Shown here one piece after another: positions 46,483 to 61,900 of a stretch of 64,000 nucleotides of DNA. The stretch lies in the NCBI GenBank assembly GCA_027491255.1, contig JAIXWM010000120.1, positions 2,884 to 66,883 of the forward strand, read 5' to 3'. Within the stretch, counting starts at the first letter, position 1, and every line of letters begins with the position of its first letter. Both the position numbers and the translations under genes were made by a program. Source of the stretch: Rubrivivax sp. GTDB lineage: Bacteria; Pseudomonadota; Gammaproteobacteria; Burkholderiales; Burkholderiaceae_C. The notes below the pieces were generated by a model that was not told where the DNA came from, ran no database searches, and saw only the letters and a list, made by a program, of their open reading frames with translations.

Positions 46483-46563
46483 GCCCCGAATCTACCGCAC
46501 GGGCCGGCAAAGCAAACGGGCTCCACCAGGGAGCCCGTCGTGCTGGGGGCATTGCCCGCTCGG

Positions 46564-46767
46564 TCAGACCGGTACCTTGCGCAGCATCTCCACGCCGATC
46601 TCTCCGGCGGCGATCTCACGCAGCGCGGTCACGCTGGGCTTGTTCTTGGACTCGATCTTGGGCGTGTGCCCCTGGCTCAGCATGCGCGCGCGGTACGTGG
46701 CGGCCAGCACGAGCTGGAAGCGGTTGGGGATCTTCTCGAGGCAATCTTCGACGGTGATGCGGGCCAT
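46564..46767 (-). CDS. rpoZ: RNA polymerase omega subunit
   Basis: [30 protein letters not shown]. Confidence 0.98.
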
Positions 46768-46792
46768 GGTCAGGGGATCCTCGAGGCGGTGG

Positions 46793-47422
46793 TCAGAGAA
46801 GGTCGAGTGCCGCGAACACCTGCGATCGATTCCGGATCTGGGTGACGTAGCGCAGACGCTGCGAATGGACGACGGCTTTGAGATCGAAAAGCGCCGTGTC
46901 GAATAAGCTGTTGATTATAACGAAGTCGAAGTGGCGGGCTTGCGCGACTTCGATGCGCGCGTTGGACATGCGCGTCTCGATCACCTCGGGCCCGTCCTCG
47001 CCGCGGCGCATCAGGCGCTGGCGCAATTCCTGCCAGCTTGGCGGCAGGATGAAGATGAGCACGGCGTGCGGGAACAGGCGCTTGATCTGCAGCGCGCCCT
47101 GCCAGTCGATCTCGAGCACCACGTCCTCGCCGCGCTGCAGGCGCGCCTCGATTGCGCGGCGGGAGGTGCCATAGAGGTTGCCGTGCACCTGCGCCCATTC
47201 GAAGAACTCGCCGCGCTCGATCATGGCTCGGAAGGTGGGCTCGTCGGTGAACCAGTACTCGCGCCCGTCCTGTTCCTGACCGCGGGGCTTGCGCGTGGTG
47301 TGGGACACCGAGACCGCCAGACGCGCATCAAGTTCGAGCAGCGCCTTGACCAGGCTGGACTTGCCGGCCCCGCTCGGGGCGGCGACGCAGAACAGGTTAC
47401 CGGGGGTTTCCGTGCCGTTCAT
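46793..47422 (-). CDS. gmk: Guanylate kinase
   Basis: [40 protein letters not shown]. Confidence 0.98.
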
Positions 47423-47564
47423 GGCCCTTTTCCGAGGCTTGCGACCCGGGCGTGTGATGCAGAGTGCAGTCTAGCTGCGTCAGGCCCGCCAGCGTTTGGT
47501 CCGCGGGCCGGATCGGTGTCGGCAGGACGGCGCTACAGATTGGCGCGCTCGTGCCGAAAAACGA

Positions 47565-49112
47565 ATGCCCGTGCTGCCTGCGGCACTCCGACTGTCTTTG
47601 CTTCCCAGAACTGCCTTGCCACGCGATCTCTGCACGTCCGTGACCGATGCCTGCCGCCGGTGGCCGCTTGGCGCTGCGCCGGCTTGCCTGCGCTCGCTTG
47701 CAAGCTTCGTGGCCACTGGGTCGGCGGCGGTTCTTGCCCTGTCTTCGGCGCTGGTGTGCGGGCTTGCCCATGCGCAGACGGCGGCGGATCCTGCGAACGG
47801 CGCCACTGCGGTGACGACCGTGGCCGCGCCACGCCGCGCCGAGGCCAGGGCGTTGATACGCGAGGCCCTGGACACCCACCCGGCCGTCCTGGCCGCGCGC
47901 CAGGCCCAGGACTCGGCGCGCTTCGACGTCGAAGGCGCGCGCTGGCAGTTCTATCCCACCCCGTCGATCGCCTATGAGGCCACCAGCCGACAGACCAGCG
48001 CTGCGGCCAATCAGCGCTCCGGCGTCCTGCGCCTGCAGCAGCCCTTGTGGACAGGCGGGCGTCTGACTTTTCAGCTCGACCGCGCGCGGGCCAATGAGCA
48101 GGTCAGCGGCAGCGCGGTCGATGTCGAGCGGCGTGACGTCGCGCTGCGCATCATCCAGGCATTGGGCGAGCTGCGCACGGCCGCACTGAAGCGCTTGGCT
48201 TATCGGCGCAGCGGGGCGCTGCACGTCGAATACCAGGCGCTGGTCCAGCGCCGGGTGGCCGAAGGTCTGTCGCCCCAGGGCGATGTCGTGCTCGCGCGCT
48301 CCCGCCTCGTGTCGGTGCGTGCCGACCTGGAGGCAGCCCAGGTCCAGCAGGCGCAGGCCCTGAACCGGCTCGAGCTGCTGCTGGGCCGCAGCCTCGAGCT
48401 CGAGGAGCTTGCAGAGATCCTGGCCGATGCCCGGGACGACGCAGGCGCCGACTGGGCCAACCCCGGTCTCGAAGCCTTGCTGACCCGCGCCGCCCAAGCC
48501 AGCCCGGCGCTGCAGCGCGCGCTGTTCGAGATCGATGTCCGCCGTACGGAGGTCGACCTCGCGCGCAGCAGTCTCGCGCCCCAGGTCTCGGTGCGCGCCG
48601 AGCACGCTCGCGGCAGCACGACCTCCAGCGCCTCGACACTGCACCTGAGCGTGGCGAGCAACTTCGGTCCTGGTTTGTCGGACCGCTCGGGCATCAGCGC
48701 GGCGCTGCGCCGGGTCGATTCGAAGCAGGCAGAGCTGGAGGCGCGTCGGCGTGACGTCGCCGACCAGGTGCGCGCCGACTACCTGACGGCGGAATCCAGT
48801 GAGCGTCGCCTGCAGGTGCTGTCGGACGCCGCGGCACTGGCAGCCGACGTCCTCGTGACCTGGCGCCGCCAGTTCCTGGCGGGTCGCAAGACATGGCAGG
48901 ACCTGATGAACGCAGCCCGCGAGAAGGCCCAGGCCGACGTTCAGCTCGCCGAGACGCGTTCGGTGTATTGGGCCGCGGTGCAGCGCCTGCGCATCGCTGC
49001 GGACGGCCTGGACGCCTACCTCGACGGCCTGCCGGCCGCCGAACGGCCCGCAACGCTGCCGCCGACGGACGTCCGGCCTTCCACTCCATCTTCGACCGAG
49101 GGCGCGCGATGA
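47565..49112 (+). CDS. TolC-family outer membrane channel of a T1SS (start uncertain, 47565 or GTG 47640)
   Basis: Signal ending in LAHA/QT; ALDTHPAV, QFYPTP, LQQPLWTGG, QFLAGRKTWQDLMNAARE. Confidence 0.9.
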   Translation: MPVLPAALRLSLLPRTALPRDLCTSVTDACRRWPLGAAPACLRSLASFVATGSAAVLALSSALVCGLAHAQTAADPANGATAVTTVAAPRRAEARALIREALDTHPAVLAARQAQDSARFDVEGARWQFYPTPSIAYEATSRQTSAAANQRSGVLRLQQPLWTGGRLTFQLDRARANEQVSGSAVDVERRDVALRIIQALGELRTAALKRLAYRRSGALHVEYQALVQRRVAEGLSPQGDVVLARSRLVSVRADLEAAQVQQAQALNRLELLLGRSLELEELAEILADARDDAGADWANPGLEALLTRAAQASPALQRALFEIDVRRTEVDLARSSLAPQVSVRAEHARGSTTSSASTLHLSVASNFGPGLSDRSGISAALRRVDSKQAELEARRRDVADQVRADYLTAESSERRLQVLSDAAALAADVLVTWRRQFLAGRKTWQDLMNAAREKAQADVQLAETRSVYWAAVQRLRIAADGLDAYLDGLPAAERPATLPPTDVRPSTPSSTEGAR

Positions 49113-51319
49113 ACGTGGACACTGCCGCAGCACCGGCACCGCGCCCCAATCTGCGCGCCCAGGCCGCCTTCGCGGCCGTCATGCGACTGGCGCAGCTGCG
49201 TCGCGAGCCGGTGGACGGCCTGGAGATCCGGGGTGTGCTCGAGGGCTTCGGCGCCGAATGGGCCGAGATCGAGATGATCGAGGAACTCTCGCGCCAGCTC
49301 AACCTGCCGATGCCGGTGTGGAGCAAGGCGCCAGACGACGGCAGGCTGCCCATGTTGGCCCTGTCCCCCCAGGGCGACTGGGGGGTGGTCACGGCGCGCA
49401 ATGGCGAGGGCCATTGGGTCTCGAGCTGGTGGGACTCTGGCGAGCGCAAATTCCGGGAGGAGACCGTACCGGACTTCGCCAAGGGCCACCGGTTCGCACG
49501 CTGGAGCGTCGCGCCGCGCTTCATCGCCAGCAAGAGCCCGACGCTGCGCCTGATCGTCAGCGAGATCCTGAACCAGAAGCGCGGCCTGCTCGACGTTGCC
49601 GCCGGCACGCTGGCCATCAGCGTGCTGGCCATGGGTGCGTCGTTCTATTCGATGCAGGTCTACGACCGGGTCGTCCCGACGCAGGCCGAATCCACGCTGC
49701 TGGTGCTGACCATCGGCGTCACGATGGCCATCCTGTTCGAGATGCTGGGCAAGTGGATGCGCTCGCACATGCTCAACCGCATGACCGATGCGATCGACCA
49801 GCGCCTGGCGCGGGCGATCTACACCCGCTTCCTGTCCTTGCGGCTGGACCAGCTGCCGCCCAGCGTCGGCTCGACCTCCGCACGCATGCGCAGCTACGAA
49901 AGCGTGCGCGGCTTCCTCGTCGGCATCGCCACGCAGGTGATCGTCGACATCCCGTTGGCCCTGCTGGCGCTGCTGGTGCTGGCCATCATTGGCGGGAAGG
50001 TCGCGCTGATTCCCGGCTTGTTTCTCTTGCTGGGATTCGGGATCGGGATGGTGTTCCGCGGGCGTACCGAGCGGCTGGCCAAGCTTGGAACCCCCACGCA
50101 ACATTTCAAGACCGGCCTGTTGGTGGAAAGCATCGAAGGCGCCGAGACCATCAAGTCAGGGCAGGGTGGCTGGCGGATGTTGTCGCGCTGGCTCGACCTC
50201 ACCGACCAGGCGCGCCAGCACGACATGGCCATGCGCGACATCGCCGACCGCTCGCAGCATGCGGTCGCCACCCTGAATCAGCTGGCCTATGTCCTGATCG
50301 TCGCCCTCGGCGCGATGGCGGTCGGGCAGGACAGCTTCACGATGGGGGGGCTGATCGCGTGCTCGATCCTGGCCGGCCGCATCCTCGGCCCGGTGACGAT
50401 GCTGCCGAGCCAGTTGACGCAGTGGGCGACCACCAAGGTATCGCTCCAGGACCTGGACCGGCTCTGGGCGCTGCGGCAGGACCACCCGGAGGACGTGCGG
50501 CCGCTGCAGATCGACAACCTGCAGGGTCGCTTCGAACTGGCCGACGTTCGCTTCAGCTATGGCGGCAGTCTCGGCCTGCTCGCGCCGCGGCTGCAGATCC
50601 AGCCTGCCGAGCGCGTGGCCGTGCTCGGAGGTGTGGGCAGCGGCAAGACAACGTTGCTGCGCGTGCTTTCCGGGATGTACAAGCCCCAGGAGGGCCGTGT
50701 CACGCTGGATGGCCTGGACATCGACCTGATCGCCAAGAGCTCGCTGGCTCACCGCACGGGCTACGTGCCGCAGGACGGTCGGCTGTTCGCGGGCACGCTG
50801 CGCGAAAACCTGGTGCTCGGCCTGACCGACCCGGGCGATGACGTGATCATGCAGGCCGCCGCCCGCACGGGTCTGCTCGATGCGGTCATCGCCCCCGACT
50901 CGCGCGGCCTGGAGCGCCCCATCTCCGAGGGCGGTATCGGCCTGTCGGGTGGACAGCGGCAGCTCGTGCACGTGACGCGCGCGCTGCTGCGCATGCCGAC
51001 GATCTGGCTGCTGGACGAGCCCACGGCGTCGATGGACCAGGGACTGGAGGTCAAGGTCATCCAGATGCTGCAGGACGAACTCAATGCGCGGCCGTCGAGC
51101 ACTCTCGTGCTCGTGACCCACAAGCCGCAGATGCTCGTGCTCGTCGATCGGGTCATCGTCTTCGCGCAGCAGCGCATCGTGATGGACGGGCCGCGCGACC
51201 AGGTGCTGCAGAAGCTGATGGAAAAGCCCGCCGCGCCCGAGCCCGCCGCGCAGTCCCGAGCCCCTTCTCCGGCGCCGGTCTTCGGCGGTCTGTCGGTCGG
51301 CCAGAGGAGGGTCGCATGA
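49109..51319 (+). CDS. T1SS ABC transporter with N-terminal C39-like domain (LapB/SiiF-like)
   Basis: SMQVYDRVVP, Walker A GGVGSGKTT, LSGGQRQ, LLDEPT, VTHK; ATGA overlap with tolC; no catalytic Cys seen in the N-terminal domain. Confidence 0.95.
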   Translation: MNVDTAAAPAPRPNLRAQAAFAAVMRLAQLRREPVDGLEIRGVLEGFGAEWAEIEMIEELSRQLNLPMPVWSKAPDDGRLPMLALSPQGDWGVVTARNGEGHWVSSWWDSGERKFREETVPDFAKGHRFARWSVAPRFIASKSPTLRLIVSEILNQKRGLLDVAAGTLAISVLAMGASFYSMQVYDRVVPTQAESTLLVLTIGVTMAILFEMLGKWMRSHMLNRMTDAIDQRLARAIYTRFLSLRLDQLPPSVGSTSARMRSYESVRGFLVGIATQVIVDIPLALLALLVLAIIGGKVALIPGLFLLLGFGIGMVFRGRTERLAKLGTPTQHFKTGLLVESIEGAETIKSGQGGWRMLSRWLDLTDQARQHDMAMRDIADRSQHAVATLNQLAYVLIVALGAMAVGQDSFTMGGLIACSILAGRILGPVTMLPSQLTQWATTKVSLQDLDRLWALRQDHPEDVRPLQIDNLQGRFELADVRFSYGGSLGLLAPRLQIQPAERVAVLGGVGSGKTTLLRVLSGMYKPQEGRVTLDGLDIDLIAKSSLAHRTGYVPQDGRLFAGTLRENLVLGLTDPGDDVIMQAAARTGLLDAVIAPDSRGLERPISEGGIGLSGGQRQLVHVTRALLRMPTIWLLDEPTASMDQGLEVKVIQMLQDELNARPSSTLVLVTHKPQMLVLVDRVIVFAQQRIVMDGPRDQVLQKLMEKPAAPEPAAQSRAPSPAPVFGGLSVGQRRVA

Positions 51320-51371: not shown

Positions 51372-52517
51372 ATGAGGCGCCTGAACTTCGGGGCCTGGAC
51401 CGGGGGGCTGCTGCTGCTGATCGTCAGTGCCTTCATGCTCTGGGCGGCGTTGTTCGAGCTCGACCAGAGCGTGCGTGCCCAGGGCCAGGTCATCCCGGAA
51501 GACCGCACGCAGGTGATCCAGGCCGCCGACGGTGGCGTGCTGCAGTCCCTGCTCGTCAGCGAGGGGCAGCGCGTTCGCAAGGGGCAGCTGCTGGCCAGCC
51601 TGGAGAAGGAACGCGCCTCCGCTGCGGTCGACGAGGTCGAGAGCCGGATCGCAGGCCTGTCGATCAACCGCATCCGCGCCCTGGGCGAGGCCAGCGAGAC
51701 CACACCCGACTACGGACGCTTCGCGCGCACCCACGCCGATGTGGTCGCGGTCCAGCAGGCCTTGTACCTTCAGAACCTGTCGGCCCTGCGCACCGAGCTC
51801 GAGGCCCTCGGCGGGGCCCTGCACCTGGCCACCGAGGAGTACGAGCTGACGCAGCGGCTGTTCGAGAACGGCGACGTCAGCCGTGTCGAGCTCATGCGTG
51901 CCGAACGCCAGGTGGTGGAGTTGCGCCAACGACGCGACGGCGTGCGGCAGAAATTCCGCACCGATGCGCGCAAGGAGATCGCCCGCATCGACGAGGAGAT
52001 GAACAGCCAACTCAGCAAGCGTCGCGAGCGGCAGAGCATCCTCGGTCACACGAACATCGTGGCGCCGCTGGACGGCGTGGTGAAGTACCTGCGCATCAAC
52101 ACGCTGGGCGGTGTGTTGCGTGCTGGTGACGAATTGATGCAGATATCGCCCACCGAAGGCGGCTATGTCATCGAGGCCAAGATCAACCCCGTGGACATCG
52201 GCAAGCTCAGGATAGGCCTGCCGGTGGCGGCGCGCTTCGATGCGTTCGACTACACCGTCCACGGCACGCTCACCGGACGTCTGACGTACTTGAGTTCAGA
52301 CACTCTGGTTGAGCAGGGGTCGGGTGGACAAAGTAACATTTACTACCGTTCTCACATCCTCATGGAACCGCAGCAAGCCAACCCGAAGCTGACGCTGGGA
52401 CAACTCAAGCCCGGCATGACGGCGACGCTGGATTTCCAGACGGGCAAGAGCACGGTGCTGGCCTTCATCGCCAAGCCCATTCTGCGCGCCTTCAGCGGTG
52501 CGCTGACCCAGCAATGA
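51372..52517 (+). CDS. T1SS membrane fusion protein (HlyD family)
   Basis: N-terminal TM, VRAQGQVIP, GGVLQSLLVSEGQRV, IVAPLDGVV, LKPGMTA, KPI. Confidence 0.95.
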   Translation: MRRLNFGAWTGGLLLLIVSAFMLWAALFELDQSVRAQGQVIPEDRTQVIQAADGGVLQSLLVSEGQRVRKGQLLASLEKERASAAVDEVESRIAGLSINRIRALGEASETTPDYGRFARTHADVVAVQQALYLQNLSALRTELEALGGALHLATEEYELTQRLFENGDVSRVELMRAERQVVELRQRRDGVRQKFRTDARKEIARIDEEMNSQLSKRRERQSILGHTNIVAPLDGVVKYLRINTLGGVLRAGDELMQISPTEGGYVIEAKINPVDIGKLRIGLPVAARFDAFDYTVHGTLTGRLTYLSSDTLVEQGSGGQSNIYYRSHILMEPQQANPKLTLGQLKPGMTATLDFQTGKSTVLAFIAKPILRAFSGALTQQ

Positions 52518-52560: not shown

Positions 52561-53259
52561 ATGAAGTCCGAGACCGGCTTCCAGTTCTGGCCCGGCTACG
52601 TGGCGGCGATCAGCTGCCTCGTGCTGGGGCTGCTGCTCGTGGCTTCTGTGGTTGCGTCCTTGACCACGCAGCTCGGCCTGATCGCCGCCGATGTCAACTC
52701 CGCCTTGCTGGCGCAAGCCTTCAGGCGCGCGGCGGCGCGTGCCGAGGCGCAGGCGCAGGGCGACGCCGCCGCGGTTGCACGCCCCGCGGCTGCTGCGACT
52801 GCGGTCGCCGTGGCGCCGCCCTCCGTGGCGCCGCCGCTGCCGCTGCCGGCCGAGCCCCCCGTCGTCCCGCTGCCTGCGGCGACGGCGCCGGCAGCCCTGC
52901 CGCAGGCAGCGGTCGACAACCACCTGACCTTGATCTTCGGCGAACAGGTGTCGGGCATTCCGCCAGAACGGCGCCCCGAGATCGCAGCTTCGCTGCGCGA
53001 ACTCACGGTCGCGCCAGGCTCGTCCTGGCGGGTCTGGGCGACAGCGCCGGACGGCGAACTCGCCCGGCGGCGCAGCACTTTCAGATTGATGGTCGCGGTG
53101 CGCACGTTTCTGGCGGAGCAGGGCATTCCCGAGCGGGCCGTGGAACTGCGCCTGCTCGAGGGCCCGGTCACCGGCAATCCGGGCGACATCGTCGTGCGGG
53201 TCGGGCCGGCGCAGGCCGGTGTCACAACGCCTGCGGCTGCCGCGGCGGCTCGCCCCTGA
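52561..53259 (+). CDS. MotB/SiiA-like membrane protein, paralog 1 (no channel Asp)
   Basis: FWPGYVAAIS then a single TM, Ala/Pro linker, C-terminal OmpA-like segment (MVAVRTFLAEQGIPERAVELR). Confidence 0.65.
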   Translation: MKSETGFQFWPGYVAAISCLVLGLLLVASVVASLTTQLGLIAADVNSALLAQAFRRAAARAEAQAQGDAAAVARPAAAATAVAVAPPSVAPPLPLPAEPPVVPLPAATAPAALPQAAVDNHLTLIFGEQVSGIPPERRPEIAASLRELTVAPGSSWRVWATAPDGELARRRSTFRLMVAVRTFLAEQGIPERAVELRLLEGPVTGNPGDIVVRVGPAQAGVTTPAAAAAARP

Positions 53260-53273
53260 GGACCGAACACGCC

Positions 53274-54338
53274 ATGGACAGCAGCGCATTGCCGCACCGG
53301 GTGGTCAGTCGCGAGGAGGTCGATGCCTTGCTCGGTTTCGCGCCGGCGCAGGGCGCGGCGCCTGATGCGGCGCGGGACGGCGCGGTCCTGACGCCGGGGC
53401 AGCGCTTGGACCTCGAACTCGAACTGCCGGCACCGCCGTCGCGCGCACGTGCGGGCTGGCGCACCGCCGCGCGCCCCATCGATGCGTGGCCGGAAGCGAA
53501 ATTGCGACCTGCCGCCGTCGCCGTCTGGCTGCGGCGGCCCACCCAAGGCAGGGCGGTCGAGTGGTCCGGGATCGATTTCTGGCCGGCCTACGCCGACGTG
53601 CTGTCCAACGTCGTGCTCAACCTGCTGTTCCTTGTCGGCACGTTGACGCTGGGCCTGGTCGTGCTGAACCAGGAAGTGGTCGGATTCCAGAAGCGTCTGG
53701 CGGCGTTGATGTCCCAGGAAGTGCCGGCGCCACGGCGGACTGTGCAGGCCGCGCCGGCGCCCGCGCCGACCACCGCAGCGGCGCCCAAGGCTGCGCTGCC
53801 TCCTGCTGAGGCTGCGTCCTCTGCCGCGTCTGTCAGGCTGGTGCCTTCCACGGCTGCTGCGCCCGCTGCGGCCGCACCTGCAGCGGCGCAGGAGGCGTCC
53901 CCGCGGCCCCTGCGCGAGTTTGCAATGCGCAACGAGTCGGTGGCGCCGTCCGGGGGGCCTGCGGGCGGCGGCGGCGTGGCGACCGCCGAGCAGCGACGGA
54001 TCGCCGAGTCTGCCGCCCAGACCTTGGTCGGAGGGCGCCACGCTGCCACGCTCGTCTTCGACCTTCGCGAGACACGCTGGCCGCGGTCGCGACCCATCGT
54101 CGGGGCCGAGCACCTCGGCCCGGACGATCGACGCGCGCTCGTGGCCTTCGCTCCGGTGGGCAACCGGCGACTGATGGCCGATGCCTTCAGCCGCTTGACC
54201 TCGGTGCGCGAGGCCATGGTCGCCTCCGGCGTGCCCGCCAGCCGCATCGACTTGAGGATCGCTCCAGTGCCGCCCGAACTGGAGAACGACGACAGCGTGT
54301 CGGGCAGTGTCTTCGTCATCAACCTGGGAGGGTCCTGA
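53274..54338 (+). CDS. MotB/SiiA-like membrane protein, paralog 2 (Asp retained, ~100-aa N-terminal extension)
   Basis: FWPAYADVLS then a TM, Ala/Pro linker, OmpA-like C-terminus (RLTSVREAMVASGVPASRIDLR). Confidence 0.72.
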   Translation: MDSSALPHRVVSREEVDALLGFAPAQGAAPDAARDGAVLTPGQRLDLELELPAPPSRARAGWRTAARPIDAWPEAKLRPAAVAVWLRRPTQGRAVEWSGIDFWPAYADVLSNVVLNLLFLVGTLTLGLVVLNQEVVGFQKRLAALMSQEVPAPRRTVQAAPAPAPTTAAAPKAALPPAEAASSAASVRLVPSTAAAPAAAAPAAAQEASPRPLREFAMRNESVAPSGGPAGGGGVATAEQRRIAESAAQTLVGGRHAATLVFDLRETRWPRSRPIVGAEHLGPDDRRALVAFAPVGNRRLMADAFSRLTSVREAMVASGVPASRIDLRIAPVPPELENDDSVSGSVFVINLGGS

Positions 54339-54368
54339 CCGTCTGCCGAGTCAGACGCGCCAGGATCC

Positions 54369-55751
54369 GTGAATGCCATGGCTGCAGTGCTGGAAAACCT
54401 TTCGACCGTGCCCGACCAAGACCTGGAAGAGGCCGCCACTTCGCGCCCTGCCGGCCGCGTGCGGGCCGTCGCGCCGCCTGCGGGCCCTGGACGGGCCGTC
54501 GTCCGCGACTGGGTGTGGGTGCTCGCGCCGACGCTGATGCTCGGGCTGGTCATTTTGTTGCTTTTTCGCAATCCCTTCCTGTATGCACTCACCTCGATGC
54601 CTGGCAGCCAGATCGTGCAGGCGATCGTGGTGGCCTTCGCCGGCGGCTTGGGCTTGGTGTGCGCCGCGCTGCATCGTTTCGGCACCGAGAGCGCGCTGCT
54701 GGCGCAATGGCGTCATGCAGCTTCCGTCGAGGCGCGCGAGCGGTTGCTGGACGGCTGGGGCCGCCCGTCCTGGGTGCTGTCGTTGCTGCGGGCGCTTGGC
54801 GCTCGCGAGACGTCCGTCTTCGAGCGGCAGGTTCGGCTCGATGCCGAACTTTCCGCGCTGCGCGAGCGCCTTGCCGGGCGCCTGACGGCGCCGAATTACC
54901 TGGCAGGTTCCTTGATCGGGCTGGGCCTGGTGGGCACCTTCCTCGGCTTGATCGCGACGCTGGGTGACCTGGGGCGGCTGTTCGACTCCCTGCTGGGGGC
55001 CGACCGGGCCGGCATGAACCCCACCGACATGTTCGCCGACATGGTGCGCCGGTTGCAGGAGCCGATGCAGGGCATGGGGACGGCATTCGTCTCCTCGCTG
55101 TTCGGGCTGGTGGCTTCATTGCTGCTGGGATTGAATGCCCTGACGGTGGCGCGCGCCGGCAGCCGGGTGGCCGACGACGCCGCCGAGCTGGTGCGGCAGT
55201 TCGAGGCCGAGCGGTCGACGGCTCAGGCGGCGGAACTGGAGTCGGTGGCGGCGCAACAGCGGGAGACCTTGGCCTTGGAGATGAAGCTTCGGGCCGAGGA
55301 ATGGCGGCGCTTCCTGGACGACCTGGTCGAATTGCAGGCGCGTCAGGAACACCAGGCCTCGCTCTGGCGTGAGCAGATCGCGGAGATGTCCGAGAACACG
55401 CGCACGCTGGCCAACGCCTTGCGCGATCGCCTGCGGGTGGACCGCGCGCCGGCCCGGCTGAGATTGCGCGAGGACAAGAGCGCACCCCGCCGCCGGGCCA
55501 CCCACGGCCTGGAGTCGGCGTCCGGTACCGGACTGGACGGCACGGCTCTTTGGAAGAACATCGGTGAGTTGACCGCCGCCCAGGGTGAAAAGCTGGCGGC
55601 GGAGCTGGGTCGCATTTCGCAGGAGCAGACCGGGCTGATGTGGAACATGTCCCAGAACCTGGAACATCTTTCCGATCTGCTGCACTCCACCTTGAGCCGC
55701 CAACTGTCGCTGACCTTGACCGTGGATCCGTCCCGCAAGCCCTCCTCCTGA
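54369..55751 (+). CDS. MotA/TolQ/ExbB-family (SiiB/ZorA-like) channel subunit with cytoplasmic helical tail
   Basis: About 4 TM segments; GLGLVGTFLGL and GMGTAFVSSLFGL motifs; predicted coiled-coil C-terminus; GTG 54369 or ATG 54378. Confidence 0.78.
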   Translation: MNAMAAVLENLSTVPDQDLEEAATSRPAGRVRAVAPPAGPGRAVVRDWVWVLAPTLMLGLVILLLFRNPFLYALTSMPGSQIVQAIVVAFAGGLGLVCAALHRFGTESALLAQWRHAASVEARERLLDGWGRPSWVLSLLRALGARETSVFERQVRLDAELSALRERLAGRLTAPNYLAGSLIGLGLVGTFLGLIATLGDLGRLFDSLLGADRAGMNPTDMFADMVRRLQEPMQGMGTAFVSSLFGLVASLLLGLNALTVARAGSRVADDAAELVRQFEAERSTAQAAELESVAAQQRETLALEMKLRAEEWRRFLDDLVELQARQEHQASLWREQIAEMSENTRTLANALRDRLRVDRAPARLRLREDKSAPRRRATHGLESASGTGLDGTALWKNIGELTAAQGEKLAAELGRISQEQTGLMWNMSQNLEHLSDLLHSTLSRQLSLTLTVDPSRKPSS

Positions 55752-55789
55752 GCGGGCCCGGGGTGTGCCTGGATGTCCGGATCGCAGGG

Positions 55790-55890
55790 CTGTGTTGAAA
55801 TATTAGTTTGAAAACATTTGTACGTGAGAAAATCTGAGAAGCACTGAACCTTTTGCGCAAGGGTGCTGCAAGATAATGTGACTTGAATGA
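55790..55890 (+). promoter_or_regulatory. AT-rich putative promoter region of the adhesin gene
   Basis: GTTGAAATATTAGTTTGAAAACATTTGTAC...AAGATAATGTGACTTGAATGAA is far more AT-rich than its flanks; exact elements not assigned. Confidence 0.45.
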
Positions 55891-55982
55891 ACCGAATGGG
55901 GAGACTGCGTGCGTTCGTTGTGGGGGTTCTGCCGTGGCTCGCCTGAGTCCGCGACACGGAGACGGGGCCTCGAGGAGGGTGG

Positions 55983-58900
55983 ATGACTGACACCCCCCGC
56001 CCGGCTCCTTCCGAAGGACAGGCGATCAGCCCCGAGGCAGCTGCAGCGCAGGCTGCGGCTGCCGCACGTGCTGCTGCGGCTGCGGCAGCACGCGCGGCAT
56101 CCGTGCCGCGCTACAACCGCGTCGTCATCAACGTACCGCGCACCGAGGTCGTCGGCGTCGCGATCGTCGACACCGATTTCGTCTTCACACTGAAATCCGG
56201 TGTCCGCTTGCTGGTGCGCGACGGCGCGATGCGCTCCGCGGCCGAGCCCGATTTCGCCATCATCTTCGCCGGTGAGGCGGTCGAGGGGCAATCGCTGATC
56301 GCGGTGGCCGACGCGAACTCCGGCATTTCCGTCACGCAGGATCCCTGGGGCGAGGCGCTGGCGCGTCCGGGCGAGGCGACACCGGGTCTGGTGCCGGAGA
56401 CGACGTCCACGGCCATGGCTGCGCCAGCCAGCACCGTGCCGCCGGCGCCCCCTGCGCAGCCCGACATGCTGGAGGGTGTCCGTCGTTTCTTCCAGCAGCC
56501 GCTCGTGTCCCTCGGGTCTGCGGCGCTGGGCGTGGCCGGCTTGTCCGGTCTCGGCGCGGCGACGGCAGCAGTCGCGGGAGGCTCCGCGACCACGCTCGCC
56601 ACCATCGTCGAGGTCGTGGCCGTCGGCGGCCCCTTCATCGCCGACGTGCTGGTCACCCTTTATGACGCGGACGGTCGCGTCGTTGCCGTGTCGGTCAGCA
56701 ACGATCCGGGTTCGCACACCTTCAATCTCCCGGCAGACCTGCCCTCGGGGGATTACCTCCTTGTAGTTGGCGACCTCAACAGCAGCCAGCCTGACTACAT
56801 GGACGAGCGTCTCGGCACGCCGGTGGACCTGCCCGACGGCGGCTTGCGGGCCATCTTCAGCCTCAGTTCCAGCGCGACGAACCGTGTCAGCGTCACGCCC
56901 CTGACGGAGATGGCGGTGCGCCGCGCCTTCCTGCAGGCGGGCATGCCCATCGACAGCGTCGACGCGCCGGCTGCCAGCATCGTGGCAGCCGCGAACCAGC
57001 AGATTGGCGCCCTGTTCGGCGTGACCAACATCCTGGGCGACGTCGTCCCGGTGATCGGGATCGACGGCCGCGTGAACCCGACCTTTTCGGAAGACGAGGT
57101 CACCGCGGCCGAGCATTACGGTCGCGTGCTTGCCGCTCTGTCCGGGCTCGATGCGGTCACCGCCAGCACCCTGAACACATTGCAGGCCTTCACCCAGGAA
57201 GTGCTGCGCTCGGCAGATCTGTCGTCGTCAGCGACGCAGACGCTGGTGCGCGAGATGCTCAGCCAAGGCGCCAACAGCTTTGAGAACTCGCCCACCGGCA
57301 CCCAGACCTTCGCAGACCTGACCGGCTTCATACGCGAGACCCTGCGCGAGCTGGTTGCGCCGCCGCCGGTCAACCGCATGGCGGCCGAACGCGCCACGGG
57401 TGCATCCCTGCTCAGCGGCGGCTTGTCGAACTCCGACGCCGATGCCGCCAAACCGCTGGCCGATGGCTTCGTCAACGAGGCGGACCTGGCCGCAGCCGGC
57501 ACTGCCGCGGGGGCCATCCGCCTGCCCGTGGCGATCCCTGGTTCCTCGCTGGTCGGTGACCGCCTGACGCTCACCATCCCGGCGGCCGACGGCGGAACCC
57601 CCCTGGTCGCGAGCCGGCTCCTTGCCAGCGAGGATCTCTACCGCGGTTACGCGCTGATCGACCTGGGCGCCGACGACCTGCGCGCCATGCGCGACGGCGT
57701 GAAGTCCCCGGTCGTGCGCGTGGAGGCGCCGGCAGGGTCGGGCGTCCAGCCTGTGGAGTACCCCGCGCTGACGCTGTGGGGCGGCAAGCTCACGCTCGAC
57801 ACCCAGGCGCCCGCGGTCACGCAGCTGTCCATCAGCGCCACCAGCGGCGGCACGCTCGACTCCGCAGAACCGGGCGTCGTCTACCTGAACGCCGGCGACG
57901 TCGTGCGTGTGGCGGTGCGGTTCGATTCCGATGTCGTCGTCAGCGGGCGTCCGAAGCTGATGCTCGAGATCGGCGACGGCGACACGCCCGTCCAGGCCGA
58001 CTACCTCTCCGGCAGCGGCGGCAACGTGCTGACTTTCAGCTACGTCGTCGCCGCTGGGCAGAACGACGCCACCGGCATACGCATCCCCGCCAACGCGCTG
58101 ACGCTGCCCACGACGTCAGACCGCATCACCGACGCGGCCGGCAACCCGGCGGTGCTCACGAGCGCGCTTGTCTCGGGCGCTGAAGCACCGCGCGTGGACA
58201 CCGTCGCACCAGCGGTCTCGCTGACCAGCGCCGAGCTCTCCGGCAACTCGGACGCCGTGGTGTCCGTCAGCGAACCGGGCACGGTGTATCTCGTGCGGGA
58301 CACGGTCGCTGTCGGTGTCGATCCGCAAGCGATACGGCTGTCGCCCGGCAACCTCTGGAACGAGGCCCAGGCGATTGCGACCACGGGCGGCCCGATCGAG
58401 GTCCGGGTCAGCACCCAGGGTCTGCTGCCGGGCACCTACAAGGCCTACGCGGTCGACCGTGCAGGCAACCTGTCTCCGGTGTCCTCGGGCTCGGTGGTCA
58501 TCGACACATCCGAGCCTTTCATCCTTCCCGACGGGGGCGTCCGGTTCACGGCGTCCACAGGCGCGCGCGACGGCCTGTTGAATGCGGGCGACACCGTCAC
58601 CGTTACATTCAATTTCAGCGAGCCGGTTTCGGTGACCGGTCAGCCCAGCGTCGCGCTGAGAGTGGGCAACGTGACCGTCGAGGCCCGTCACGTCCCGTCG
58701 GGCAGCGGGCCGTCGGCCCTGCAGAATTTCGTCTACACCGTCGAGCCGGGCCGCACCGATCTTGACGGCATCTCCATCGGCGCCAACAGCCTCATCCTCA
58801 ACGGCGCCACGATCCGCGACGTCTCGGGCAACGACGCCAGCCTGGAGCACGCTCAGGTCTCGGCCGATCCGGCCTACCGCGTCGACACGACGGCACCGTC

Positions 58901-61900
58901 GGTCGCGGTCGGCGGCGTGCAGCTCAGTGCCTCGCCCGACCAGTTGTCCCTGCCGCCTTCCAGCCGGCTGGAACCGGGCGCCAAGGTCTACGCCCGGGTC
59001 GTCTTCGACGAGGCGGTCACCGTCACCGGCAGCCCGCAGCTGGCCCTGAAGGTGGGCGACACCATCGTCCAGGCCAGCTACGAGGGGGGCTCGGGCTCGA
59101 CGACGCTGAACTTCTCCTACACGGTCCAGTCGGGGCAGAAGGACGCCGACGGCATCAGCGTGCCTGCCAACGCCCTCACGCTGGGGTCGGACGCCACCAT
59201 CGTCGACGCCGCCGGCAACGCCGCGCGGCTGGGCCTGGCTGCGGTTGGCGACAACCCGGGCTTCCTGGTCGGTGAGCGTGCCCGGATCGCGCTCGAGAAG
59301 ATCCGCGACTACGACGGCGTGACCGCGGCGCCGTCGGTGCAGGACTACGCCGACGCCGGTGTCACCGGGGTCGACGCGGCCAACCTCGGGTCCGTCAACA
59401 GCGCATTCGCCAAGATAGGCCCGGACGCCTCGGACACCGTGGCCGAGGTGCAGGCTGTTGTCGACATCTACCGGCGCCTGCTGGCTGCGGCCGATGGCGG
59501 CGCCGCGCCCGAGCCCGAGCCGCTGCCTACGCGCGCCGAGTACGCCCAGCTGGGTGTGGCGGGCGTCGACAACGTGGCTCAGGAGCGGCTGCTCGGGGCC
59601 GTGATCGACGGCAAGCCAGGCATCGCCGTCGACACCCTGGCGGAACTGCAGGCGCTGGCTGACGCGGTCAAGGCCGTGACCACGGGCGCTGCGGGTGGAA
59701 CGTCGCCGACGAAGGAACAGCTCGAACTGCTGGGCATCACCCGCGTCACTGCCGACAACGAGCCCGCGGTCAGCGACGCGATCGCGCGCACGGCCGATGA
59801 CGGCTCTGGCGTCGACACCCCCGCCGGGCTGCAGCAGGTGGTTGACGCCGCCATCGCCGCCGCCGACGCCGCATTGGCCCTGATCAAGGCCTACGACGGC
59901 AGCAACACCGCACCCGTCATTGGCACCTATGTCGATGCTGGCGTCAAGGGGGTGACGACCGAGAACCTGGGCGCGGTGAACAGCGCCGTTGCCTTCCTGC
60001 CGCCCGAGAAGACGGACTCGAGGCTGGAGGTGCAGGCGGTGGTCGACGCCTATGTCTCCATTCTGGCCGCTGCAGACGGACTGCCTGGCAATGCAGCCGA
60101 TCCCACCGGCGCTCAGTACGAGGCCGTCGGCGTGTCAGGCGTGGACACGCCCGCGGAGCTGAGTCTGCTGGGCGACGTCATCGACGGCAAGCTCAGCGGT
60201 GCGGTCGACACTCGCGAAGAACTCAACGCGTTGGCGGGGCATGTCGATGCCGTGATCCGGGGGGCGGCCGGTGCGGCGCAGCCCTCCGCGTCGCAGTTGC
60301 TGGCTCTGGGTGTCACCGGCGTCACGGAGGAGAACCTCGCCGCCGTCCAGCGCGCGATCGCCCGCACGGCAGACGACGGCACCGGAGTCGATACGCTTCC
60401 TAAGTTACAGGCGGTGGTCGACGAGGGCCTGCGCAGGCTGTCCGATGCCCTGAAGGTCCTGCGCGAGTACAACGGCAGCAACACCGTTCCTACGCTCGAC
60501 ACCTATTTCGACGCCAGCGTCATCGGCGTTGACGGGTCCAATCTGGGCGCAGTCAACAGCGCGGTCGCTCTCCTGCCCCCTGAGAAAACCGACACCATCA
60601 CCGAGGTCCAGGCCGTCGTCAACGCCTACCAGGCCATCCTCGACGCCGCGAACGGCATCGATGACAACGGCTCGAAGCCGAGTATCCGTCAGTACGAGCT
60701 CGTAGGCGTCACCGGTGTCGACCAGCAACTCGAGCAGCGGCTGCTCGGCGATGTGATCGACGTCAAGCGCACCGCCGATGTCGACACGGTGTCCAAGGTG
60801 CAGGCGTTGGCCGATGCGGTGTCACGCGTGCTCGGCCCGGCCGCCGGGGACCCGCCTGCGGGGCCGCTGCAGAAGGCCGACCTGGCCTCGCTCGGTGTGG
60901 ATGTCGCCCGTTTGCGCGACATCTACATGCCCAAGGTCCGTGCCGTCATCGAGCGACAGGCCGAGAGCAATCCTGACGACCTGGGCACGCTCGATGGCTT
61001 GAGAGCCTATGTCAGCGCGGGCGTGGGCGAGGCCGCGCTCGACATCATCCAATCCTTCGACGGGAGCACGTCCGCGGTCATGCCTGACCTGCAGGTCTAT
61101 GCCGACGCGGGCGTGCGCGGTGTGGACGCCGCCAACGTCGCGGCCGTCAACAGCGCCGTGGAACTGCTGGGCACGGGCAACAAGTCGAGCGCGGTGCAGG
61201 TGCAAGGCATCGTCGACACCTACGCCCGCATCCTCGCCGCTGCCGATGGCAGCAGGGATGACGACGTCCGCGTGAGTGCGGCCGACTACCGCGACAAGCT
61301 GGGTGTGGGCGGCCTGGCCGCGCTGGCCGACGCCAGCCCCGGGGCTGTGACCGCCGGCGAGACCTTGATGGCCGATGCGGTGGACATCGCTTCCCGCTCC
61401 CAGGTCGACAACGTCACTGAATTGAGGGAGCTGGCAGACATCGTCGCCCGGGTCGTCAGGCAGGCCACCCCGGGCCAGCCCCTGCAGCAGATCGGGGAGC
61501 TGGACTTCGAGCGTCTGGGGCTGGATCCGGTCGTGCTTACGCCGGCCCGCGCGGCGGCGCTGCTGGCCGACATCAGAGGCCGCGGTGCCGACCAGGTGGA
61601 CACCCTGTCCGAGCTTTCCGCCCTGATCGATGTCGTCGCCCCGACGGTGGGCTTGCGGCTGTCCTCGGCCGGACCGGTGATCAATGCCGCCGAATCGACT
61701 CAGCAGACCGACGGCGTGGTTCAGATCCACGCCGAGCCAGACAGCACCTGGACCGTCACGCTCACCGGCGCAGCCGGAGGCGTGGTCGTGCGACAAGGCT
61801 CGGGCACCGGTGAATGGCAGCCGTTCACGCTGTCATCCACCGATGTCCTCACGCTCGGCCAGGGCGCGGTCGGCGTTTCGGGCACGGTGACCGACCGCGC

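What the first reader, a model, noticed from the sequence alone, without database searches (positions are those of the whole stretch)
53301..53336. FliM-N/CheZ-like CheY~P-binding peptide at the cytoplasmic N-terminus of the Asp-bearing B subunit
Seen: the ~100-aa pre-TM extension starts with VVSREEVDALLG. Known: the CheY~P-binding peptide of FliM has consensus LSQxEIDALL, and the CheZ C-terminus is similar. Inference: a CheY-like response regulator may dock on this motor, linking chemosensory or surface-sensing signalling to adhesin control. Caveats: the match is short, and its GAG GAG G codons also look like a Shine-Dalgarno before an out-of-frame 22-codon ORF, so the annotated start needs confirmation.
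Basis: inference. Interest (0 to 1): 0.62.

Follow-up and report, generated by a model that had tools for sequence, protein, structure and literature searches.

The report
FliM-like docking peptide on adhesin-secretion motor
A membrane motor protein that sits in a giant-adhesin secretion operon begins with a conserved copy of the short peptide flagellar motors use to capture the chemotaxis signal protein CheY, so swimming signals may act directly on adhesin display, although no binding has been tested.

Summary
Bases 53301-53336 encode VVSREEVDALLG, residues 10-21 of a 354-aa MotB-like protein with an invariant Asp108, a transmembrane helix from about residue 103 and an OmpA-like C-terminal domain. 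Its gene lies in a conserved operon: TolC-ABC-HlyD, an Asp-less B paralog, this Asp-bearing B, a MotA/ExbB-like A subunit, then a giant adhesin.

The motif is translated and under purifying selection. Twelve full-length orthologs (41-78% identity) keep V-[VI]-[ST]-x-E-E-[VI]-D-A-L-[LM] with synonymous codon changes. dN/dS is 0.22 for the motif, 1.15 just upstream and 0.62 in the linker. The out-of-frame 22-codon ORF is not conserved.

The ~100-aa N-terminal extension occurs only in this narrow, unannotated clade.

The motif matches the FliM N-terminal EIDAL(L) peptide:
- 11/11 positives against the genome's own FliM1 (ILSQDEVDALL).
- hhalign probability 86% over 23 columns, N-terminus to N-terminus.
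- About rank 7 of 10 million six-frame windows under a FliM-N scoring matrix.

The genome has two CheY-like proteins in one che cluster and an FlhF-FlhG pair. Both CheY~P and FlhG are published readers of this motif.

No response-regulator gene is linked to the locus.

The parts
53301..53336 (+). FliM-N-like EIDAL(L) motif VVSREEVDALLG (residues 10-21 of B2)
   Evidence: Searches give the sequence; conserved in all full-length orthologs; dN/dS 0.22; predicted helix 13-19 between low-confidence flanks; match to FliM N-terminus.
53274..53573 (+). Clade-specific cytoplasmic N-terminal extension of B2 (residues 1-100). It holds the motif, a variable linker and small conserved patches (P41-G42, P52, R67-P68-I69).
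   Evidence: remoter homologs start about 8-25 residues before the WP-Y-x-D segment; invariant columns; mostly pLDDT below 50.
53274..54338 (+). B2: Asp-bearing MotB/SiiA-like subunit (354 aa)
   Evidence: weak NCBIfam PRK09039 'peptidoglycan-binding protein' match at the TM region. C-terminal domain gives OmpA-like Foldseek hits. D108 invariant.
53580..53660 (+). Transmembrane segment of B2 with channel Asp108 (codon 53595-53597)
   Evidence: invariant D101 W103 P104 Y106 A107 D108; helix 103-148.
53258..53262 (+). GAGGA Shine-Dalgarno-like site 11 nt upstream of ATG 53274, overlapping the B1 stop codon
   Evidence: read from the sequence.
53323..53391 (+).
   Evidence: its ATG is absent in 5 of 8 distinct orthologous loci (GAC instead of GAT); selection acts on the B2 frame.
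52561..53259 (+). B1: MotB-like paralog without the channel Asp (FWPGYVAAIS) and with a short N-terminus
   Evidence: conserved upstream of B2 in all loci.
54369..55751 (+). A subunit: MotA/ExbB/TolQ-family protein (460 aa; databases aa) with a long C-terminal coiled-coil-like tail
   Evidence: PF01618, 25.1 bits against a cut-off of 22.9; orthologs 56-88% identical.
47496..49112 (+). TolC-like outer-membrane factor
   Evidence: PF02321, E 3.4e-37.
49109..51319 (+). T1SS ABC transporter (ATG 49109 overlaps the TolC-like stop as ATGA)
   Evidence: PF00005 and PF00664; start codon.
51372..52517 (+). HlyD-family membrane fusion protein
   Evidence: PF13437, E 5.4e-17.
55983..63998 (+). Giant repetitive adhesin-like T1SS substrate; the ORF runs off the window
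   Evidence: more than 2672 aa, open at the 3' end; a large ORF follows the A subunit in every orthologous contig.

Best explanation
The 12 residues are a real, translated short linear motif at the free cytoplasmic N-terminus of the Asp-bearing B subunit. This subunit belongs to a MotAB/ExbBD-type proton motor (two B paralogs and one A subunit) encoded inside a type I secretion / giant adhesin operon. One freshwater betaproteobacterial clade added a ~100-residue, largely disordered tether to this subunit. The tip of the tether copies the FliM N-terminal EIDAL(L) helix.

The most likely function is the one this helix has in FliM. It would dock a soluble protein that reads EIDAL motifs, most probably phosphorylated CheY from the single che cluster, onto the motor. 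Two tethered copies per complex would be expected if B forms a dimer. Docking would then modulate proton-driven work of the motor on the secretion system, such as retention versus release of the adhesin. That would couple attachment to the chemotaxis state.

Shown: the motif is translated, conserved, N-terminal, restricted to one clade and FliM-N-like, and CheY and FlhG are both encoded in the genome. Inferred: cytoplasmic location and stoichiometry (from MotB-family topology), partner identity, and the effect on adhesin handling.
For: Translation and selection:
- Synonymous codon variation occurs inside the motif (Ser AGT/AGC/TCC, Glu GAG/GAA, Asp GAT/GAC, Leu TTG/CTG/CTC).
- dN/dS is 0.22, as low as the TM segment (0.28) and lower than the flanks (1.15 and 0.62).
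- V10 is GTC in 5 of 8 distinct loci, so it is not a start codon. Every locus has an in-frame start 4-17 codons upstream, and in several it overlaps the B1 stop.

Resemblance to FliM-N:
- BLASTP gives 11/11 positives against own FliM1, ILSQDEVDALL.
- A clade-2 ortholog gives 13/13 positives including the trailing x-G.
- hhalign of the N-extension profile against a FliM profile gives probability 86%, E 4.7e-6, over 23 columns, with N-extension residues 6-28 aligned to FliM 1-24.
- A scoring matrix built only from FliMs of other genomes scores the motif at 22.0 bits, about rank 7 of 9.98 million windows. That is above the genome's own FliM2 (20.2) and the E. coli CheZ C-terminus (20.3).
- The most distant ortholog reads MVEKVVTAEEIDALM, the same register as E. 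coli FliM MGDSILSQAEIDALL (the E. coli sequence is from memory).

Structural and genomic context:
- AlphaFold shows a short helix at 13-19 with higher confidence than its disordered flanks, as expected for a docking motif.
- Possible partners exist: two stand-alone CheY-like proteins in the CheA-CheW-CheR-CheD-CheB cluster on C103.
- FliM1 with an intact EVDALL motif shows that an EVDALL-reading partner, presumably CheY~P, operates in this cell.

Against: No receiver-domain gene was detected on the 69.9-kb contig C68, and none is called in the eight distinct orthologous contigs with the extension. There is therefore no genomic linkage to a dedicated CheY.

The motif is short. Six or so unrelated windows in the genome reach the same matrix score. 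A local HMM search ranked the motif only 15th.

The same motif is a published FlhG-binding site. S-x-x-E followed by a hydrophobic-acidic helix is also a generic helix-capping pattern that could serve any partner.

Only two genomes carrying the locus are available (G000 and G061). Both are flagellated, so co-occurrence with chemotaxis could not really be tested.

In Salmonella the chemosensory input to SiiAB was reported to be independent of CheA and CheY.
Confidence: 0.4

Rival explanations
1. The motif docks the MinD-like ATPase FlhG rather than CheY. It would tie placement, number or assembly of the adhesin secretion machine to the flagellated pole, or report its presence to the FlhF/FlhG counting system.
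For: The FliM/FliY EIDAL motif is described as necessary and sufficient for FlhG binding in Shewanella putrefaciens (bioRxiv 10.1101/2022.04.21.489128). The genome encodes FlhA-FlhF-FlhG-FliA on C146, plus a second orphan MinD-like ATPase on C162. Polar placement of a holdfast-like adhesin is biologically sensible (inference).
Against: There is no linkage of flhG to the locus. FlhG binding to FliM was not reproduced by size-exclusion chromatography with purified Vibrio proteins in the same preprint. Nothing in the sequence separates an FlhG site from a CheY site.
Confidence: 0.15
2. The helix is an internal part of the machine and its likeness to FliM-N is convergent. It would bind the cytoplasmic face of the A pentamer, the ABC transporter's nucleotide-binding domain, the HlyD N-terminus or the adhesin's retention module. 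There it would act as an autoinhibitory plug or an assembly tether.
For: Strong conservation shows function but not which partner. The extension holds further conserved patches (PG at 41-42, P52, RPI at 67-69) that FliM lacks, and hhalign finds no similarity beyond the first 23 columns. No receiver-domain gene is called in the orthologous contigs. SiiAB-type motors are thought to act on their T1SS by direct contact.
Against: Relatives without the extension have the same B1-B2-A arrangement and an A subunit of the same length (462 aa against 457-462). No new partner domain therefore appeared together with the motif. The match to FliM-N covers every consensus position, the trailing Gly and the N-terminal register, which is more than a generic amphipathic helix needs.
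Confidence: 0.3
3. The resemblance has no function. The stretch is either untranslated leader, with the GAGGAGG acting as a ribosome-binding site for a downstream or out-of-frame start, or it is neutral sequence.
For: GAGGAGG lies 3 nt upstream of an out-of-frame ATG. Start codons in a 70% GC genome are hard to call.
Against: Amino-acid conservation persists with synonymous change, and dN/dS is 0.22. The out-of-frame ATG is missing in 5 of 8 distinct loci, and the GAG GAG codons vary to GAA. The GC1/GC2/GC3 pattern of the extension (0.79/0.62/0.82) matches that of the whole gene. Six separately listed 354-aa sequences sit in the same 90%-identity cluster, from several source collections.
Confidence: 0.03

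Closest known systems
FliM N-terminal peptide (FliM_N, 'EIDAL/EIDALL' motif; also the FliY N-terminus and, more loosely, the CheZ C-terminus)
   Same: It has the same consensus, [LV]-[ST]-x-x-E-[IV]-D-A-L-[LM]-(x)-G. It has the same position a few residues from the N-terminus, the same short helix followed by a flexible acidic/Pro-rich linker, and the same cytoplasmic side of a membrane-anchored ion-driven machine.
   Different: The carrier is not a C-ring switch protein. It has no FliM (PF02154/TIGR01397) or FliN/SpoA domain. It is a stator-type B subunit, so the peptide hangs from the ion channel unit rather than from a rotor. Gln at motif position 3 is Arg in the window's sub-clade. Binding to CheY~P or FlhG has not been shown.
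SiiA/SiiB of the Salmonella SPI-4 type I secretion system (MotB-like and MotA-like proton channel serving the giant adhesin SiiE)
   Same: It has the same operon logic: TolC-like, ABC, HlyD-like, a MotAB-like pair and a giant adhesin. The B subunit has an essential-type Asp in its TM and a periplasmic OmpA-like domain. A chemosensory input is documented for SiiAB, through CheM.
   Different: This locus has two B paralogs, one without the Asp. The A subunit has a long coiled-coil-like tail. The 100-residue N-extension with the EIDAL motif has no counterpart, as far as I recall, in SiiA, whose N-terminus is short with Asp13; that detail is from memory and was not checked here. No sequence-level match to any solved structure was found, so homology to SiiA itself was not demonstrated. 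The reported Salmonella input is an MCP contact independent of CheY.
MotB / PomB / ExbD / TolR B subunits of 5:2 ion-driven motors
   Same: It has a single N-in TM helix with a conserved Asp, a neighbouring MotA/ExbB-family partner (PF01618 above cut-off) and a C-terminal OmpA-like fold.
   Different: No Pfam MotB_plug or OmpA model matches. It serves a secretion system, not a flagellum or TonB/TolA. No known member of these families carries a FliM-type docking peptide; that statement rests on my own knowledge and on the literature searches, which found none.

Membership tests
FliM_N / EIDAL(L) CheY~P-docking motif | Sequence consensus L-S-Q-x-E-I-D-A-L-L | tested here: met
   11/11 positives against own FliM1. 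13/13 for a clade-2 ortholog. hhalign probability 86%, E 4.7e-6. Matrix score 22-24 bits, against 27.9-35 for the FliM motifs used to build the matrix, 30.7 for own FliM1, 28.6 for E. coli FliM and 20.2 for own FliM2.
FliM_N / EIDAL(L) CheY~P-docking motif | Located at a free terminus on a flexible cytoplasmic tether | tested here: met
   The motif starts 4-17 residues after the start codon in all loci. Helix 13-19 lies between segments with pLDDT below 50. The cytoplasmic side is inferred from MotB-family topology and Arg-rich residues before the TM.
FliM_N / EIDAL(L) CheY~P-docking motif | Phosphorylation-dependent binding of CheY | not testable with these tools
   No complex prediction or binding assay is available. 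CheY-like proteins are encoded.
FliM switch protein family (TIGR01397 / PF02154 + PF01052) | FliM middle domain and FliN-like C-terminal domain | tested here: not met
   No Pfam or NCBIfam FliM hit for B2. The hhalign match ends after 23 columns. A weak BLAST segment to the FliM C-terminal PGD-L-LD region was not confirmed by hhalign.
MotB/ExbD/TolR-type B subunit of ion-driven 5:2 motors | Conserved Asp in the single TM helix | tested here: met
   D108 is invariant in 13 orthologs. An Asp stands at the equivalent spot in every remoter homolog read.
MotB/ExbD/TolR-type B subunit of ion-driven 5:2 motors | Adjacent MotA/ExbB/TolQ-family A subunit | tested here: met
   PF01618 at 25.1 bits against a cut-off of 22.9 for ORF 54369-55751. 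The A gene is conserved downstream in all loci.
MotB/ExbD/TolR-type B subunit of ion-driven 5:2 motors | Periplasmic peptidoglycan-binding OmpA-like domain recognised by family models | tested here: inconclusive
   No Pfam OmpA or MotB_plug hit. Foldseek gives OmpA-like hits at E 4.5e-4 to 1e-2, with TM-score normalised by target length about 0.45, on a model of moderate confidence.
SPI-4 (SiiABCDEF)-type T1SS with accessory proton channel | One operon with TolC-like, ABC, HlyD-like, MotAB-like pair and giant adhesin | tested here: met
SPI-4 (SiiABCDEF)-type T1SS with accessory proton channel | Sequence homology of the B subunit to SiiA | tested here: inconclusive
   A profile search of all PDB chain sequences gave only chance hits. 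SiiA itself was not compared directly.

The most novel reading that the evidence does not exclude
CheY~P docks directly on the stator-type B subunit of a secretion-associated proton motor and switches a giant adhesin between release and surface retention. That would be a second kind of CheY-controlled ion-driven motor. It would also be the first in which the chemotaxis signal acts on the channel unit rather than on a rotor switch, giving an instantaneous, post-translational swim-or-stick decision.
Probability: 0.35. Interest if true: 0.8.

Novelty: new variant of a known kind. Interest (0 to 1): 0.6.

Why it matters
How bacteria coordinate swimming with attachment is mostly explained by slow second-messenger (c-di-GMP) and transcriptional circuits. 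A FliM-type docking peptide grafted onto the proton motor of an adhesin secretion system would give a direct, fast protein-level link from the chemotaxis phosphorelay, or from the flagellar placement ATPase FlhG, to adhesin display.

It would also offer a handle on the still unclear job of SiiAB-like motors in type I secretion, because a 12-residue motif with an obvious candidate ligand is easy to mutate and assay.

The case also adds to the view that the EIDAL helix is a portable module that evolution attaches to different machines.

Tried and rejected
- A short HMM built from 30 very uniform FliM N-termini and run with hmmsearch --max ranked B2 only 15th with 4.0 bits. It ranked the genuine FliM2 12th with 4.3 bits. 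Local alignment of a 15-column, over-sharp profile does not discriminate, so I replaced it with a fixed-window scoring matrix built from a more diverse FliM set.
- Sequence searches of the PDB with the ortholog profile and with the first 40 residues found nothing meaningful. FliM peptides in CheY complexes are shorter than the 20-residue limit of that library.
- A literature search for 'EIDALL' inside words returned only noise.
- A second BLAST segment linking B2 residues 27-50 to the PGD-L-LD start of FliM's FliN-like domain raised the idea that the whole extension derives from FliM. hhalign did not support it, so I dropped the idea.
- B2 and the A gene are in the same frame, so I translated a read-through B2-A chain (table 4, P0188). 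The aim was to ask AlphaFold whether the motif docks on the A subunit. The MAFFT alignment with unpaired orthologs misaligned the B2 rows at about 20% identity. Only 2 other loci are in frame, so I did not run the job.
- Phylogenetic profiling of CheY paralogs against the locus was considered. It was not done because only two genomes carry the locus.
- tblastn with E. coli CheZ found no CheZ. The 154-aa ORF after the first CheY may be a CheX/CheC-type phosphatase, but this was not checked.

Full report
**What is there**

Bases 53301-53336 read GTG GTC AGT CGC GAG GAG GTC GAT GCC TTG CTC GGT, which is VVSREEVDALLG. These are residues 10-21 of a 354-aa ORF at 53274-54338 on the + strand. I call this protein B2.

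B2 continues with about 80 poorly conserved residues. Then comes the segment DFWPAYADVLSNVVLNLLFLVG, which holds Asp108, followed by an Ala/Pro-rich linker and a C-terminal alpha/beta domain.

AlphaFold, run with a 14-sequence alignment, gave mean pLDDT 57. It predicts:
- a short helix at 13-19, with local confidence about 63 and flanks below 50;
- a long TM helix at 103-148;
- a disordered stretch at 150-235;
- a folded domain at 238-351.

Foldseek matches that C-terminal domain to OmpA-like peptidoglycan-binding domains. The best hit is 6jfw at E 4.5e-4.

**Gene context**

All genes lie on the + strand:

| Gene | Coordinates | Evidence |
|---|---|---|
| TolC-like | 47496-49112 | PF02321 |
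| ABC transporter | 49109-51319 | start overlaps the TolC-like stop as ATGA |
| HlyD-like | 51372-52517 | PF13437 |
| B1, a MotB-like paralog with Ala in place of the channel Asp | 52561-53259 | |
| B2 | 53274-54338 | |
| A subunit, MotA/ExbB family | 54369-55751 | PF01618, 25.1 bits against a cut-off of 22.9 |
| Giant repetitive protein | 55983 to past the window end | |

This is the layout known from the Salmonella SPI-4 system, where the MotAB-like SiiAB proton channel assists secretion and retention of the giant adhesin SiiE. The same order, TolC-ABC-HlyD-B1-B2-A-large ORF, is found in the eight distinct metagenomic contigs that carry a B2 ortholog with the extension (a ninth contig, L005, repeats the P0008 gene). 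The B1-B2-A core recurs in a remoter locus without the extension. In one contig (L004) the locus sits beside the same guanylate-kinase and rpoZ-like genes that flank it upstream in the window.

**Is the motif translated?**

Four lines of evidence address this.

1. A codon alignment of eight distinct loci (nine fetched; L010 repeats L009) shows amino-acid conservation with synonymous change inside the motif. Ser is AGT, AGC or TCC. Thr is ACC or ACT. Glu is GAG or GAA. Asp is GAT or GAC. Leu is TTG, CTG or CTC.
2. The out-of-frame ATG exists only where the Asp codon is GAT, which is 3 of 8 loci.
3. Val10 is GTC in 5 of 8 loci, so it is not a start codon.
4. Every locus has an in-frame ATG or GTG 4-17 codons upstream. 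In several loci it overlaps the B1 stop codon.

Nei-Gojobori estimates of dN/dS by region:

| Region | dN/dS |
|---|---|
| Residues 1-9 | 1.15 |
| Motif (10-21) | 0.22 |
| Linker (22-98) | 0.62 |
| TM region | 0.28 |
| C-terminal domain | 0.33 |

The GC1/GC2/GC3 pattern of the extension equals that of the whole gene. Across 13 sequences at 41-78% identity, V10, E14, E15, D17, A18, L19 and G21 are invariant.

The motif is therefore part of the protein and under purifying selection. Whether translation begins at ATG 53274 (GAGGA 11 nt upstream) or at TTG 53289 is open. The TTG aligns with the start codons of the shortest orthologs. Either way the motif lies within 10 residues of the N-terminus.

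**Distribution**

- An exhaustive HMMER scan of 1.8 billion representative proteins found 86 relatives. Only three representatives align from the query's N-terminus. All others are 200-330 aa and begin 8-25 residues before the WP-x-Y-x-D segment.
- The extension is therefore a late addition in one clade.
- Among 37 species of the same genus, only the window's genome has the gene.
- Among the species representatives of the genome collection, one further MAG has it. Its record title is 'uncultured beta proteobacterium ... Loclat'.
- Databases call the protein 'hypothetical protein' at best.

**How FliM-like is it?**

- In the six-frame translation of the whole 6.5-Mb genome (13.0 million residues), S..E[IVL]D.L[LM] occurs three times. 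The sites are B2, one internal site on C42, and MIQPILSQDEVDALLQG. The last is the N-terminus of FliM1, which scores 302 bits on TIGR01397.
- A second FliM paralog, FliM2 on C150, has a degenerate LLSQDELTALS.
- BLASTP of the extension against FliM1 aligns VVSREEVDALL with ILSQDEVDALL, with 7 identities and 11/11 positives.
- A clade-2 ortholog aligns VVTQEEVDALMRG with ILSQDEVDALLQG, 13/13 positives.
- A profile-profile comparison of the extension (13 sequences) with 54 FliMs gives probability 86% and E 4.7e-6. It aligns residues 6-28 of B2 with residues 1-24 of FliM, and nothing beyond.
- I built a scoring matrix from 15 distinct FliM N-motifs taken only from other genomes. It gives B2 22.0 bits and the orthologs 22.8-24.3. 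Own FliM1 scores 30.7, own FliM2 20.2 and the E. coli CheZ C-terminus 20.3. B2 is about 7th of 9.98 million windows.
- About six unrelated windows score as well, so the score alone would not be convincing. The combination of score, N-terminal register, conservation and flexible flanks is.

**Who could read the motif?**

- The genome has one canonical che cluster on C103: CheY-like (120 aa), two small ORFs, an MCP, CheY-like (121 aa), CheA, CheW, CheR, CheD and CheB.
- It has two weaker CheW-domain hits elsewhere.
- tblastn detected no CheZ.
- An FlhA-FlhF-FlhG-FliA cluster lies on C146.
- The sister MAG has the same two FliMs and CheW set.
- No receiver-domain hit was found on the window's contig, and none is called in the orthologous contigs.

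Published work names two ligands of the FliM/FliY EIDAL(L) helix. One is CheY~P (PMC9126983). The other is the MinD-like ATPase FlhG (bioRxiv 10.1101/2022.04.21.489128).

For the machine itself there is a chemosensory precedent. [quoted passage not shown] The authors reported this as independent of the phosphorelay, although cheA and cheY mutants were hyper-invasive with attractant (bioRxiv 10.1101/2021.05.14.443827).

**Most likely mechanism**

B2 carries a tethered docking helix that recruits an EIDAL-reading protein to the cytoplasmic face of the proton motor. The motor works on the T1SS and its adhesin.

| Reading | My estimate |
|---|---|
| CheY~P is the ligand | about 0.4 |
| Internal partner within the machine, with convergent likeness | about 0.3 |
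| FlhG is the ligand | about 0.15 |
| No function, or not translated | about 0.03 |

The internal-partner reading is weakened by one observation. Relatives without the extension have the same subunit set and an A subunit of the same length.

None of these readings can be settled without a binding test. I could not model a complex with the tools at hand. An attempted read-through B2-A model was abandoned because the alignment failed.

**Comparison with what is known, and novelty**

The carrier protein works like a MotB/SiiA-type B subunit. It meets the Asp, topology and partner criteria, but it is not recognised by the Pfam MotB or OmpA models. The motif meets the sequence and position criteria of FliM_N, but the protein is not a FliM-family member.

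I found no paper describing a FliM-type peptide on a stator-like or T1SS-associated protein.

Earlier notes of this scan report EIDALL-like peptides grafted on other scaffolds: zinc-ribbon adaptors, FliL paralogs and multi-copy membrane proteins. I did not check those notes. If they are right, portability of this helix is a wider theme and this locus is a new instance on a new kind of machine.

I rate it a new variant of a known kind, with interest 0.6.

Noticed in passing
window 52561-53259 (+) and 53274-54338 (+): Two adjacent MotB-like paralogs are conserved in all related loci. B1 has Ala where the channel Asp should be and has a short N-terminus. B2 has the Asp and the extension. This suggests a heteromeric B pair in the motor.
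   Followed up: partly
window 54369-55751 (+): After the PF01618 region, the MotA/ExbB-like A subunit has a C-terminal tail of about 200 residues that is rich in heptad-like Glu/Arg/Leu repeats. Relatives without the B2 extension have an A subunit of similar length (462 aa in L016).
   Followed up: partly
genome contigs C102:20259-21260 (-) and C150:38708-39676 (-); also G061: There are two FliM paralogs. FliM1 has an intact LSQDEVDALL. FliM2 has LSQDELTALS, with the Asp replaced by Thr. This resembles dual-flagellar-system bacteria whose secondary FliM lacks a good CheY site.
   Followed up: partly
genome contig C103:85415-85777 (+): The first CheY-like protein of the che cluster appears to have Leu rather than an aromatic residue at the position of E. 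coli Tyr106 (AAFLIGKPF against ASGYVVKPF, aligned by eye). The second has Trp. A 154-aa ORF that follows may be a CheX/CheC-type phosphatase. No CheZ was found.
   Followed up: no
genome contig C162:21235-22026 (-): An orphan MinD/FlhG-like ATPase (263 aa) lies next to a HemN-like radical SAM gene, rdgB and RNase PH genes, away from any flagellar or division cluster.
   Followed up: no
L009:7015-7140 and L010:4371-4496: A 41-codon ORF is called between the A subunit gene and the giant adhesin gene in the most distant orthologous locus. I did not examine whether the 230-nt gap at window 55752-55982 holds a counterpart.
   Followed up: no
window 44209-47422 (-) and L004:1-2618: The locus sits beside the same upstream genes in a relative at about 50% B2 identity: guanylate kinase and an RpoZ-like gene, then a long ORF that in the window is RelA/SpoT-like by its sequence. 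Yet it is absent from the 36 other species of the genus that were searched. This pattern suggests repeated loss, or a narrow sub-lineage.
   Followed up: partly
window 53274-55751 (+): B2 and the A gene are in the same reading frame, separated by one TGA and 10 sense codons. The same holds in L006 and L008 but not in five other loci, so it is probably coincidental.
   Followed up: partly
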